This document shows positions 1 to 3,000 of a stretch of 3,229 bases of DNA, one piece after another. Numbering within the stretch: position 1 is the stretch's first letter; the number at the start of each line of letters is the position of its first letter. The stretch lies in assembly GCF_003334255.1 (NCBI RefSeq), contig NZ_QOWU01000125.1, one strand, 5' to 3'. This DNA comes from Escherichia coli (GTDB lineage: Bacteria > Pseudomonadota > Gammaproteobacteria > Enterobacterales > Enterobacteriaceae). Made by a program: the position numbers.

Positions 1-3000
1 ACCTTCATCGCAGCACCTTCCTGTTTTTATGCCCCATGAAAAAAAACGGCAGGCAAAACTCCTGTGCCTGCCGTCATACTTCATGTCACCTTCAGCAATT
101 AAAACTCGAAGTTCACACCAACGTTCCAGGAGGCATCCCCATCACTGAATGCCACGCCTGCTTTCGCTGCGGTCTGCTCGTTGAAGCGGTAACCCACACC
201 CACTGCCAGTGCCTGCTGGTCGCTGTAACCACCAACCGCTGCCGTGGCGTTGAATTTACCCACACTGTACGGCTGGAACAGACCTGTCAGGGCCGCAGAC
301 TGTGCTGCTGCACGCTTCATTTCCTTGTGGTTTTCATTAATCTGGCGCTGCTGGCTGTCCAGACGTGCTGAATGTTGCTGCAGCGTACGGGTATTGGCTG
401 CAATCGCCTTGCTGTTTTTCTCAATGGATTGCGTGTTACGGGTGACACGGCCATCAATGGCACCAACTGCTGCATCAATACGGTCAGTACGACCAGACAG
501 GGCCACCAGACCATCGTTAACAGAAATGGTGTTCTTTGCACCTTCTGCACGGGTCAGGGTGCCATCAGAACTCACACCAACCAGTGTGCGGGATTCGACT
601 TTTGCAGCTGTTGCAGCAGCCGCAGCATCAATCTTGTCGGTACGCGTGGTCAGTTCACCAAGATTTTTCTTCTGCGCTTCAAGCTCGCCTTTCTGAGCAT
701 CAAGCTTGCCTTTCTGAGCTTCAAGCTCATTCGCAACAATGGTGGAGTTGGCGGACTCCCATGCCAGATAGCGCTGCAAAGATACGCGTTCTTTTATTTC
801 ATTCGGTGTTACAGCCACATTTCCATACTCATCCAGGCCGACGTTGGTTTCCATCTGCTGGATTGCTGAAACGCGGTTGTACAGGTCACGGATATTCTGT
901 TCTGTCAGGAGGTTTGTCTTAATATCATCAGTTTTCCCTGATGCCGCAGCCTTCATGAAATCATGAACTTCTTTATCATAAACAGTAAATGTTGTTGAGC
1001 CGTCTGCGGAGGTAATTGTAACATTACCATTGCCATCTATTTTACTGAGAAGTGGAATCGGCTTATTTCGCTCTTTTTCCACATCACCTAAGCCACCCCA
1101 ATCAATATGTGCCGTTTTATTATCTGGGTTATAATATACTTTATAAATACTCCCAGCGCCGTTCTGAGCATTTAAAGCAGAATAAGATTGCTCAGCAGCC
1201 ATAATATCAAAGCTAACCCCAAACAAAACACCTGCCATTGCCGCAGACAAAACAGCCTTTGTAAATTTCTTGCTCATGTGGTATACCCTATAAAATTATC
1301 TGTATACAAATAAAACAGTTCAACATCGGATATATAAAGAAAATCTGATGTCTCGCCGCTATCATGAGCTTACTCCTGAAGAAATTCCGAATTTTAATAT
1401 GAAGTTTTTCGGAATTTCCTTACTATAACGTCGGTGATATCACGTTCGCGAAGGGATATCCGCATTACGACTGGCCTGCCACTTATGCTGTCTCTTTATT
1501 CATCAACAATTTGTATACGGTTACATATTTAATTGTGAAGTTAGTCACAAAAAGAAGAAAGTCAAATAATCAAATTGTGCTTAACTGTTTACATCAGCAC
1601 AATCTGATGACCATTGAAGGACGCACTAAATTATTTTCAGCAATCCCTCAGCCTACGAAAATTCTGTATTTGATAATTGTTTTATTTGCTCTCTTTTTAT
1701 GCAGCCATTCTGTTGCTTATAAAAAAGCACCACTATCCGCGCCCTCATCTCAATATCTTTGTCGCCGGATAAAAATAACTATCAACCACAAGTATCATGC
1801 TCTCGGGGAGCGCGCACTCCCCCACTTTTTTTATCCCTGACAGGGTCAGGAGGCCGTTGCATCTCCTTTAATTATCATTGCCAGATTATTTCCTCGACCT
1901 GAGTATTCTTTATTTAGCCATAGCTTTGTAGCAAGGGGCTGGAGCGCCCCTCTTTTTTTCACCTGTCAGCCATGCCGACCTTATACGCCAGTATAGCTTC
2001 CGCATCACCCAGCGCTTCAATCTCTTTTTTCATCGTGCGCTGTCTGACATGAATTTCCAGACCTTTGGTAAACATCGCCTGCTCTGCAGCAGCACTCAGA
2101 GCAATCAGTGTTTCAGCGTCCATCGGTACGTCATTATTGTCCGCATCCGTCCAGAAAAACTGCTCCGGCAGTTTCCCCGCTTTCGCTGCCGCCACCGACG
2201 GCTCAAGACGCGTCTGCGTTGACTTCCCGTAGTCCCATTTACGCCCATTGTGCTCAAACGTGTAGTTCGCCGCTTCCATCGCATTACGCCAGGCATTAAT
2301 TTCCACCTTTTTCCGTTCACGTGACTGTGTTAAAGCTTCCGGCGGTTCTTCATACGGCTTAATCTCTCCATACCTGCCGGAAATTAAATCAGTAAAAAGT
2401 TGTCGTCCGTGATTTTCCGGATCATTTTCTGACGCAGTAAAAGGAAACCATTGCTCACCAATTTTTATCTCACAGGAAATATTACCCAATCGAGTATATA
2501 CCGCCCCCCTGACGTCTGTTACAACAATCGCCATTCTTCCCCCTGTATTACACAATGCGTTGAAATAACGTTAAGTTTGTTGTCATGGTCTGCTCATCGT
2601 ATCCGGGAGCACCCAGACTTAAAGCAGACACAAAAGCCCGCCATGTCCCCGGGATACTGTTTCCGGCATTATGAACAATCGAGAACGTGGGCGAATACGT
2701 GACGCCAACGCGGTAAAGAATCGCCACTTCAGTAATTTTTTCGCCATTGATATTCTCTTTAATTGCACTTTCACTTTCGAGAGTCGATATCGAACCAAAT
2801 AAGAAAGAGCCAACCGCATATTTTTCTGTGGATACATTACCATTCCTGCCTGCTGCCCCCTGCGGCCCTGCCGGACCACGAGGGCCTGCCGGGCCGGTTT
2901 TCCCCTGCGGCCCCGCGGGACCTGTTGCTCCGGGTTCGCCTTTGTCCCCTTTTGGCCCCGGGGCACCTTTGGCTCCGGCTGCACCAGCCGGTCCCTGAGG

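What the first reader, a model, noticed from the sequence alone, without database searches (positions are those of the whole stretch)
1959..2534. Tail-fibre assembly-like gene with no recognisable canonical Tfa motifs
Position and translational coupling to the tail-fibre gene argue for a fibre chaperone/assembly role. However, the sequence does not resemble what I recall of lambda Tfa-type proteins (for example the C-terminal EW-containing motif). It may belong to a different chaperone family, possibly one matched to collagen-like fibres with this C-terminal domain, or have another function such as a receptor-binding accessory protein.
Basis: inference. Interest (0 to 1): 0.4.

Follow-up and report, generated by a model that had tools for sequence, protein, structure and literature searches.

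The report
DUF4376-type phage tail-fibre chaperone gene
This is a real prophage gene (ORF-191A of the E. coli prophage P-EibA) that most likely helps the neighbouring collagen-like tail fibre fold; it belongs to a lesser-known but already described chaperone family (DUF4376), so it is an ordinary finding.

Summary
The ORF is real: minus strand, ATG 2534 to TGA 1959, 191 aa. The window is 99.7% identical to GenBank AF151091, where this gene is ORF-191A of prophage P-EibA (E. coli ECOR-9). It starts 13 nt after the collagen-like side tail-fibre gene and has its own Shine-Dalgarno site.

There is no Caudo_TAP hit, no pairwise similarity to lambda Tfa or Mu U, and hhalign gives 0.4% probability. 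Residues 71-181 are Pfam DUF4376 (E=1.7e-20), homologous to Alteromonas phage V22 gp27 (hhalign 90.8%, E=1.2e-6). V22 gp27 is an experimentally shown tail-fibre chaperone.

The protein has two modules. A variable N-terminal three-strand module co-varies with the fibre tip. A conserved helical C-terminal module is under purifying selection. Natural chimeras join lambda-Tfa-like or Mu-U-like N-domains to DUF4376, behind lambda-Stf-like or partly Mu-S'-like fibres. DUF4376 therefore takes the place of the Tfa C-domain.

Of 81 related viral loci, 70 have a same-strand upstream gene and 62 of those are collagen-like fibres. Three of four distant members checked also lie in tail modules.

Verdict: new member of a known kind, low interest. 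No chaperone activity was tested for this protein.

The parts
1959..2534 (-). ORF-191A coding sequence (191 aa plus TGA stop): DUF4376-type tail-fibre chaperone candidate
   Evidence: ORF list and translation. 100% identical to AAF63233.1 ORF-191A of P-EibA. Pfam DUF4376. PHROG 1141.
2343..2534 (-). N-terminal variable module, residues 1-64 (three beta-strands 7-13, 19-25, 28-34 and helix 41-51); the inferred fibre-tip recognition module
   Evidence: AF2 model with pLDDT 94.5. Only 29-43% identical to the closest E. coli homologues in A1, whose C-modules are 87-93% identical. Synonymous sites are saturated. Co-varies with the fibre tip, Spearman 0.59 against 0.33 for the C-module.
1992..2324 (-). 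DUF4376 domain, residues 71-181: helix 65-88, hairpin 91-102, helix 104-118, hairpin 127-137, long helix 140-174. Carries the invariant motifs FFWTDADNNDVP and IHVRQRxMK. Inferred oligomerisation/nucleation module.
   Evidence: Pfam PF14301 E=1.7e-20. Invariant columns in the alignment. AF2 model. hhalign to V22 gp27 residues 77-188, probability 90.8%. dN/dS 0.12-0.66.
2298..2303 (-). Approximate mosaic (recombination) joint at codons 78-79, where the conserved EINAWRN segment begins
   Evidence: Megablast matches to P-EibC/D/E and to phages 1720a-02 and phiSTEC1589 stop at window position 2300-2303. There is a sharp jump in dS between residues 2-70 and 71-191.
2535..2547 (-). 13-nt intergenic spacer with the Shine-Dalgarno-like AGGGGG (2544-2539) ahead of the ATG
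   Evidence: Read directly from the sequence. Class-A homologues have 9-20 nt gaps at this position.
2548..3229 (-). 3' part of the side tail-fibre gene (ORF-401-like, 'EPclC' collagen-like protein); runs off the window
   Evidence: Annotation of AF151091. The full-length protein has Pfam phage_tail_N, Phage_fiber_2 and three Collagen domains. Listed as EPclC in PMC3368898.
2551..2832 (-). Fibre tip domain, the last 94 aa after the final collagen run (STEKYAVGS...PGTWRAF...LTLFQRIV); presumed client of the chaperone
   Evidence: No Pfam match over this stretch. It belongs to a tip family (YAVGS..PGTWR..G[LI]F[QRE]R[IV]x) that is followed by a short-form DUF4376 gene in every locus of the set used here where it was seen.
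1934..1960 (+). GC-rich hairpin abutting the stop codon; it reads as an intrinsic terminator on the plus strand (T-run) and as an A-tract plus hairpin in the gene's own direction
   Evidence: Terminator scan. Hairpins with different sequences sit at the same position after the stop codon in other lineages.

Best explanation
ORF-191A is the dedicated intermolecular assembly chaperone of the P-EibA collagen-like side tail fibre. It belongs to the DUF4376 class, with Alteromonas phage V22 gp27 as the experimental prototype. It is not a member of the lambda/Mu Caudo_TAP class.

Proposed mechanism (inferred, not shown here):
1. The protein is translated from the late tail operon directly after the fibre gene.
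2. Its variable N-terminal beta module (residues ~1-64) docks on the C-terminal tip domain of the fibre.
3. Its conserved helical DUF4376 module (residues ~65-191) self-associates and brings three fibre C-termini into register.
4. Trimerisation and zipping of the collagen-like shaft then start from the C-terminal end.

Whether the chaperone is released afterwards (as for V22 gp27) or stays on the tip for a while (as for A5 gp9 and TfaMu) is open.

Shown here: the gene is real, it belongs to the family, its position is conserved, it is built of two modules, and the N-module pairs with the fibre-tip type.

Inferred only: physical binding, oligomeric state and chaperone activity.
For: 1. Family. 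Pfam DUF4376 E=1.7e-20. hhalign of the family alignment against V22 gp27 gives probability 90.8%, E=1.2e-6, and BLASTP gives E=9e-5. V22 gp27 is required to make functional gp26 fibre (PMC7289586). A5 gp9 co-purifies with its fibre (PMC10579305). The DUF4376 gene downstream of the Campylobacter CJIE1 H-fibre must be co-expressed for the fibre to work (PMC7882524).
2. Position. The gene starts 13 nt after the fibre gene on the same strand. Of 81 related viral loci, 70 have a same-strand ORF of at least 150 aa ending within 400 nt upstream, and 62 of these are collagen-like. The short form always lies 9-20 nt behind a tip ending G[LI]F[QRE]R[IV]x. Distant members sit behind a P2-H-like fibre or at the end of lambda-like tail modules.
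3. Modularity. Residues 1-70 are 29-43% identical and residues 71-191 are 87-93% identical to the closest E. coli homologues in the alignment. Fibre-tip identity correlates with N-module identity (Spearman 0.59) more than with C-module identity (0.33). Where tips are under 35% identical, N-modules average 33% identity and C-modules 70%.
4. Natural chimeras. P0096 and the L073 protein have a lambda-Tfa N-domain (47% identity, E=8e-40) joined to DUF4376, behind a fibre that matches lambda Stf to its very end (E=8e-69). P0046 and the class-B proteins have a Mu U/U' N-domain (E=1e-19 to 1e-27) joined to DUF4376. Precomputed Pfam agrees: PF28596+PF02413 in Tfa against PF28596+PF14301 in the chimera.
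5. Structure. The AF2 model (pLDDT 94.5) shows three N-terminal strands followed by a helical body with hairpins. This matches the published description of gp27 and gp9 and the N-beta/C-helical logic of TfaMu and Pam3 gp25.
6. Selection. dN/dS is 0.12-0.66 in the C-module.
Confidence: 0.78

Rival explanations
1. The protein is mainly a retained distal component of the mature fibre, either a transient 'cap' that shields the tip or an accessory adhesin that contributes to receptor binding. This would resemble what was proposed for A5 gp9 and what is seen for TfaMu and T2/S16 gp38. It would not be a released folding chaperone. This reading overlaps with the best explanation rather than excluding it.
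For: A5 gp9 binds its fibre but is not needed for fibre function, which led its authors to propose a cap role. TfaMu stays bound to the Mu fibre. The N-module tracks the tip, as expected for any stable tip-binding partner.
Against: The part of the protein that would face outwards, the DUF4376 module, is highly conserved across loci whose tips differ. That is not the pattern of a receptor-contacting surface. V22 gp27 separates from mature fibre on gel filtration, and the purified fibre still binds its host. There are no hypervariable segments of the gp38 type and no match to adhesin families.
Confidence: 0.15
2. The gene belongs functionally to the downstream eib 'moron', for example by helping expression or export of the immunoglobulin-binding adhesin EibA, and not to the fibre.
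For: The DUF4376 half of the gene and the spacer leading to eib are co-conserved among P-EibA, P-EibC and P-EibD, while P-EibE shares only the DUF4376 half. An eib-like anchor lies downstream in 21 of 81 loci.
Against: An eib-like gene is absent from most loci, including those of all four distant family members checked and of V22. A 680-nt spacer with terminator-like hairpins separates the two genes. The gene is close-packed with the fibre gene, not with eib.
Confidence: 0.02
3. The ORF is a decaying remnant in a defective prophage and has no current function.
For: P-EibA is known only from a partial prophage fragment (AF151091, 11,279 nt, partial J gene). The C-terminal 'VGWP' motif common in the family reads 'VGMADR' here.
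Against: The frame is intact, with a Shine-Dalgarno site. Near-identical copies occur in other genomes. dN/dS is below 1. The VGMADR ending is shared by several otherwise intact homologues. Close homologues are encoded by PhiR-series phages deposited as complete phage genomes, with E. coli C or K-12 given as host.
Confidence: 0.03

Closest known systems
Alteromonas phage V22 gp27 and A5 gp9 (DUF4376 intermolecular tail-fibre chaperones; PMC7289586, PMC10579305)
   Same: Same Pfam family, with detectable homology over the DUF4376 module. Similar size (191 vs 195 aa). V22 gp27 also starts about 12 nt after its fibre gene. The predicted architecture matches: N-terminal three-strand element plus a helical body with a beta-hairpin.
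   Different: Only about 25% identical. The N-modules are unrelated. The client here is a collagen-like lambdoid side tail fibre (EPclC type), not the knob-type fibres of marine myo- and schitoviruses. The hairpins are short, like V22 and unlike the long A5 'tentacle'. There are no experimental data for this protein.
Campylobacter CJIE1 prophage protein encoded downstream of the H-fibre (PMC7882524)
   Same: A DUF4376 C-terminal domain in a gene directly after the fibre gene. Co-expression was required for fibre function.
   Different: Its client is a Mu/P2-type myovirus fibre. I did not compare the sequences here.
Lambda Tfa and Mu U (TfaMu), Pfam Caudo_TAP PF02413
   Same: Same genomic slot (lambda: stf then tfa), similar size, and the same two-module logic of a variable N-domain that binds the fibre tip and a conserved C-domain that multimerises. 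Natural chimeras show that DUF4376 can replace the Tfa C-domain.
   Different: No detectable sequence relationship: Pfam, BLASTP and hhalign at 0.4% probability. The DUF4376 module is longer (~125 aa, three helices and two hairpins) than the ~75-aa two-helix Tfa C-domain. The statement in PMC7882524 that the Tfa C-terminus is DUF4376 is not borne out by these tests.
Cyanophage Pam3 gp25 (crystal structure with fibre gp24; PMC9608196)
   Same: An N-terminal beta domain that grips the fibre tip and a C-terminal helical domain that forms a trimeric bundle. This is the mechanism proposed here.
   Different: No sequence match to any PDB chain, by single sequence or by profile. Not among the structural matches listed.
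Intramolecular chaperone domains of T5 pb1 (4UW8) and the K1F endosialidase (3GW6/1V0E)
   Same: The authors of PMC10579305 report that DUF4376 chaperones look like these domains: a helical trimeric core at the fibre tip with hairpin 'tentacles'.

Membership tests
DUF4376 (PF14301) tail-fibre chaperones (V22 gp27 type) | Significant match to the Pfam DUF4376 model in the C-terminal part of a ~130-250 aa protein | tested here: met
   PF14301, residues 71-181, E=1.7e-20. RefSeq names the orthologue 'DUF4376 domain-containing protein'.
DUF4376 (PF14301) tail-fibre chaperones (V22 gp27 type) | Homology to an experimentally characterised member | tested here: met
   hhalign of A1 against V22 gp27: probability 90.8%, E=1.2e-6, 112 columns. 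BLASTP 25% identity, E=9e-5.
DUF4376 (PF14301) tail-fibre chaperones (V22 gp27 type) | Gene lies immediately downstream of, and on the same strand as, the tail-fibre/RBP gene | tested here: met
   13-nt gap after the fibre gene. 70 of 81 related loci have a same-strand upstream ORF and 62 of these are collagen-like fibres. Distant members follow the same rule.
DUF4376 (PF14301) tail-fibre chaperones (V22 gp27 type) | Predicted fold: N-terminal beta-strands plus an alpha-helical body with a central beta-hairpin | tested here: met
   AF2 pLDDT 94.5: E7-13, E19-25, E28-34, then H65-88, hairpin 91-102, H104-118, hairpin 127-137, H140-174. Compared with the published description only. BFVD matches are DUF4376 proteins.
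DUF4376 (PF14301) tail-fibre chaperones (V22 gp27 type) | Forms a homotrimer and a 3:3 complex with the fibre tip | tested here: inconclusive
   No multimer predictor was available. The linker-fusion model of tip plus chaperone reached pLDDT 73.5, with the tip at 41-73, and returned no coordinates.
DUF4376 (PF14301) tail-fibre chaperones (V22 gp27 type) | Fibre is functional or soluble only, or better, when co-expressed with the protein | not testable with these tools
   Needs a wet-lab co-expression assay.
Caudo_TAP (PF02413) Tfa proteins (lambda Tfa, Mu U, P2 G) | Match to the Caudo_TAP profile, including the conserved C-terminal helical domain with the ...W..YR..L..VD...(E/V)WP motif | tested here: not met
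   No Caudo_TAP hit at E<=10. BLASTP against lambda Tfa gives E=0.049 over 12 residues and against Mu U nothing. hhalign of A1 against the Tfa alignment gives probability 0.4%.
Caudo_TAP (PF02413) Tfa proteins (lambda Tfa, Mu U, P2 G) | Variable N-domain matched to the fibre tip, conserved C-domain shared across fibres | tested here: met
   This is a functional analogy only and does not establish membership.
Intramolecular chaperone domains (Peptidase_S74 type; T5 pb1, K1F endosialidase) | Covalently fused to the fibre C-terminus and removed by autoproteolysis | tested here: not met
   The fibre ORF ends with TAA at 2550-2548. The chaperone has its own Shine-Dalgarno site and ATG.
Intramolecular chaperone domains (Peptidase_S74 type; T5 pb1, K1F endosialidase) | Fold similarity to the helical trimeric IMC core | tested here: inconclusive
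T4/T2 gp38-type chaperone/adhesins | Sequence match to gp38 families; glycine-rich hypervariable receptor-binding segments | tested here: not met
   No such family appears in the Pfam, PHROG or NCBIfam results. Sequence variation is concentrated in the N-module that tracks the fibre tip, not in an exposed C-terminal region.

The most novel reading that the evidence does not exclude
DUF4376 is a fibre-agnostic oligomerisation/nucleation module that has no detectable homology to the Caudo_TAP C-domain yet is naturally interchangeable with it. On this reading all client specificity lies in the swappable ~60-110-aa N-module, which travels with the fibre tip as one recombination cassette. The joint falls at the module boundary (codon ~78 here). 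The conserved DUF4376 half also provides the homology that lets new fibre-tip cassettes upstream and morons such as eib downstream be exchanged between prophages. If true, this would give a simple plug-and-play rule for making chaperones for engineered or retargeted fibres.
Probability: 0.4. Interest if true: 0.4.

Novelty: new member of a known kind. Interest (0 to 1): 0.2.

Why it matters
For annotation: thousands of enterobacterial prophage genes labelled only 'DUF4376 domain-containing protein' or 'tail fiber protein' can reasonably be read as tail-fibre assembly chaperones of a class distinct from Caudo_TAP. For engineering: anyone expressing these collagen-like side fibres, or building retargeted pyocins and phages from them, should co-express the downstream gene. 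The chimeras suggest that the N-module, not DUF4376, has to match the fibre tip. For the biology of Eib prophages it changes little: the gene belongs to the tail module and sits next to the eib moron.

Tried and rejected
2. DUF4376 as a divergent Tfa C-domain, as stated in PMC7882524. Rejected at the sensitivity available (hhalign probability 0.4%). The Tfa profile was shallow (8 sequences), so very remote homology is not excluded.
3. Docking of tip and chaperone using a linker fusion with a paired 16-row alignment. The tip had low confidence and no coordinates were returned, so this is inconclusive.
4. NCBIfam: no model hits the protein.
5. PADLOC: no defence-family hit.
6. Rfam on the whole window at E<=1: nothing.
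7. The idea that the family is specific to collagen-like fibres. Rejected because of L073 and P0197. The papers read here do not describe the V22 or CJIE1 fibres as collagen-like.
8. A link to eib function. Rejected.
9. The longer TTG start at 2555. Rejected on homologue N-termini and the position of the Shine-Dalgarno site.
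Full report
**What is there**

The window is 99.7% identical over its full length to GenBank AF151091, the P-EibA prophage fragment of E. coli ECOR-9. All three genes lie on the minus strand:
- the 3' part of the side tail-fibre gene ('ORF-401-like'), from 3229 down to 2548;
- the target, deposited as ORF-191A, from 2534 down to 1959;
- after a 680-nt spacer, eibA, the YadA-like immunoglobulin-binding protein, from 1277 down to 99.

The target is an uninterrupted 191-codon ORF with ATG at 2534 and TGA at 1961-1959. The fibre gene stops at 2550-2548. The 13-nt gap reads TACAGGGGGAAGA and contains an AGGGGG Shine-Dalgarno-like site. 'Translational coupling' should be read as close packing, because the genes do not overlap.

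**It is not a classical Tfa**

- Pfam gives no Caudo_TAP hit even at E<=10.
- BLASTP against lambda Tfa gives only a 12-residue match at E=0.049, and against Mu U nothing.
- A profile-profile comparison of a 27-sequence family alignment (A1) with a Tfa alignment (A2: lambda Tfa, Mu U, Mu U' and five relatives) gives probability 0.4%.
- NCBIfam has no model for the protein.

**What it is**

Residues 71-181 match Pfam DUF4376 (E=1.7e-20), and the whole protein matches PHROG 1141 (E=6e-78). RefSeq labels orthologues 'DUF4376 domain-containing protein'. Some phage records-79% identical homologues 'tail fiber assembly protein'.

The literature held here contains three experimental cases for this family:
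- Alteromonas phage V22 gp27 must be co-expressed for the fibre gp26 to bind its host, and it is not part of the mature fibre (PMC7289586).
- Its homologue A5 gp9 co-purifies with its fibre but is dispensable, which led the authors to propose a 'transient cap' role (PMC10579305).
- The DUF4376 gene downstream of the Campylobacter CJIE1 H-fibre must be co-expressed for the fibre to work (PMC7882524).

I fetched V22 gp27, which lies 12 nt after its fibre gene. It aligns to the target's DUF4376 module with hhalign probability 90.8%, E=1.2e-6, and BLASTP E=9e-5. A profile search of 1.84 billion representative proteins finds 986 clusters at E<=1e-3. Most of the 150 listed are 130-250 aa proteins with the domain at the C-terminal end. 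Foldseek against predicted viral structures returns DUF4376 proteins from podo-, sipho- and myoviruses, crAss-like phages and phages of Gram-positive hosts.

**Anatomy**

AlphaFold2 with the 27-sequence alignment gives a confident model, with mean pLDDT 94.5. It contains:
- three N-terminal beta-strands (7-13, 19-25, 28-34) and a helix (41-51);
- a helical body: H65-88, hairpin 91-102, H104-118, hairpin 127-137, a long helix 140-174 and H178-183.

This matches the published description of gp27 and gp9. It also matches the 'N-terminal beta domain grips the fibre, C-terminal helices trimerise' logic described for Pam3 gp25, which has a crystal structure, and for TfaMu. No solved structure matches beyond generic helical hairpins.

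**Two modules with different histories**

In the alignment the C-terminal module is strongly conserved, with invariant motifs FFWTDADNNDVP and IHVRQRxMK. The N-terminal ~65 residues come in several unrelated versions.
- Against the closest E. coli homologues in A1, residues 1-70 are 29-43% identical and residues 71-191 are 87-93% identical.
- Megablast matches to P-EibC/D/E and to two Stx-phage relatives end at window 2300-2303, which is codon ~78, where EINAWRN begins.
- In the same pairs, the C-module has dS of 0.07-0.33 for seven of eleven comparisons and dN/dS of 0.12-0.66. The N-module is saturated at synonymous sites.

The gene is therefore a mosaic with a joint at the module boundary, and the C-module is under purifying selection.

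**Neighbourhood**

I surveyed 81 loci in total: 80 viral contigs plus the window.
- 70 have a same-strand ORF of at least 150 aa ending within 400 nt upstream.
- 62 of those carry collagen-like G-X-Y runs.
- Most of the remaining loci are contig edges, mis-chosen start codons, or short fibre-tip fragments.
- The short form of the chaperone (190-199 aa, like the target) always lies 9-20 nt behind a fibre whose 92-103-aa tip starts ...YAVGS... and ends ...PGTWR...G[LI]F[QRE]R[IV]x.
- An eib-like anchor lies downstream in only 21 loci.

Four distant members were also checked. One sits where P2 gene G would be: baseplate J/I, then a 660-aa fibre with Phage_tail_fib and Collar domains, then DUF4376, then sheath. 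Two lie at the end of lambda-like tail modules, after the J-like protein and one small gene. The fourth was uninformative.

**Which module recognises the fibre**

Across 55 non-redundant fibre/chaperone pairs, fibre-tip identity correlates with N-module identity (Spearman 0.59) more than with C-module identity (0.33). The direction is the same within each class. Where tips are under 35% identical, N-modules average 33% identity and C-modules 70%. These loci are not phylogenetically independent, so the numbers are indicative only.

The natural chimeras are stronger evidence:
- P0096 residues 1-117 are 47% identical to lambda Tfa residues 1-117 (E=8e-40), followed by DUF4376. Precomputed Pfam shows PF28596+PF14301 for this protein against PF28596+PF02413 for true Tfa proteins.
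- In L073 this chimera overlaps the stop of a 1003-aa fibre whose last 200 residues match lambda Stf to the very C-terminus (46% identity, E=8e-69).
- The 221-224-aa class has Mu U/U'-like N-domains (E=1e-19 to 1e-27) joined to DUF4376. Of the seven class-B fibres compared, three (L021, L025, L062) matched part of Mu S'.

DUF4376 therefore occupies the slot of the Tfa C-domain, and the N-domain goes with the tip. This also shows that the family is not restricted to collagen-like fibres.

**Mechanism proposed (inferred)**

The N-module docks on the fibre tip. The DUF4376 module self-associates and brings three C-termini into register. Folding of the trimeric tip and the collagen-like shaft then starts from the C-terminal end. 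Release or retention of the chaperone afterwards remains open.

My attempt to test docking used a tip-linker-chaperone fusion with a paired alignment. It was inconclusive: pLDDT 73.5 overall, 41-73 over the tip, and no coordinates returned.

Caveats:
- A related collagen-like fibre with a different tip (EPclA) was purified as a trimer from a recombinant construct, and that paper never mentions a chaperone.
- A5 gp9 is dispensable.
- A strict requirement therefore cannot be assumed.

**Comparison and novelty**

The gene has been in GenBank since 2000 as an unassigned ORF. The fibre is catalogued as EPclC. The DUF4376 chaperone class was defined in 2020-2023. This is therefore a new, untested member of a known kind.

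Two points may add slightly to what the papers I read say. First, DUF4376 is not detectably homologous to the Tfa C-domain, contrary to a statement in PMC7882524. Second, chimeras nevertheless show that the two are interchangeable. Interest is low.

Noticed in passing
window 99-1277 (-): eibA, the 392-aa YadA-like immunoglobulin-binding protein of P-EibA. It has weak YadA-anchor matches in NCBIfam and a strong PHROG 9547 match. It is a known gene (AAF63234.1).
   Followed up: partly
window 1805-1832 (+) and 1934-1960 (+): Two strong intrinsic-terminator-like hairpins with T-runs lie on the plus strand, opposite to all three genes. The second abuts the stop codon of ORF-191A. The scan found 9 terminator-like sites against 3.5 expected. 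It is unclear what plus-strand transcript they would end. A weak promoter-like site lies at 1542-1570 (+).
   Followed up: partly
L008, L019, L028, L060, L073: first ~50 nt after the DUF4376 stop codon: In several lineages a GC-rich hairpin preceded by an A-tract sits right after the stop codon. The stem sequences differ between lineages but the position is the same. In L073 it has both an A-tract and a T-tract, so it would be bidirectional. It could be a convergent-transcription terminator or an mRNA 3' stabiliser at the end of the tail operon.
   Followed up: partly
window 1278-1958: The 680-nt spacer between ORF-191A and eibA has no convincing ORF and no Rfam match. It is conserved at 92-99% in about ten related loci. 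Several of these (L002-L006, L009) carry ~110-115 extra nt at the point corresponding to about window 1735. The depositors annotated a stem-loop at window ~1381-1418.
   Followed up: partly
L063-L066, about 2525-5594 in L063: Two DUF4376 genes lie in tandem after a single collagen-like fibre. The first (192 aa) starts 9 nt after the fibre. The second follows after ~115 nt with no fibre gene between them, and its core motifs have diverged (FAWTDGDNNIVP, INQRQLQMK). It may be an orphan or alternative chaperone.
   Followed up: partly
L058, L068, L069, L071 (upstream of the DUF4376 gene): The open frame upstream is only 139-146 aa long yet ends with the usual tip motif (GLFRRVA or GLYQRIA). These could be interrupted fibre genes or stand-alone tip cassettes.
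   Followed up: no
window 1962-1985 (-), C-terminus of the protein: Most family members end ...Y.VGWP.... This is reminiscent of the ...(E/V)WP ending of lambda and Mu Tfa, although no homology is detectable. The target and a few relatives read ...YKVGMADR instead.
   Followed up: no
window 2343-2534 (-), N-module; phage records H61-H71: The N-terminal ~60-100 residues alone match proteins in unrelated phages. Examples are Vibrio VPs20 'tail assembly chaperone', Pseudomonas Itty13, Aeromonas phage 'tail fibers' proteins and Aquamicrobium P14 'tail fiber assembly protein'. PHROG 1795 (a 358-aa 'tail fiber protein') also matches. This beta module therefore circulates independently of DUF4376.
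   Followed up: no
window 2551-2832 (-), fibre tip: The 94-aa fibre tip after the last collagen run has no Pfam family. It belongs to a recognisable tip family (YAVGS...PGTWR...G[LI]FQRIx) that is distinct from the PfC domain (PF06820) of EPclA studied in PMC3368898.
   Followed up: partly
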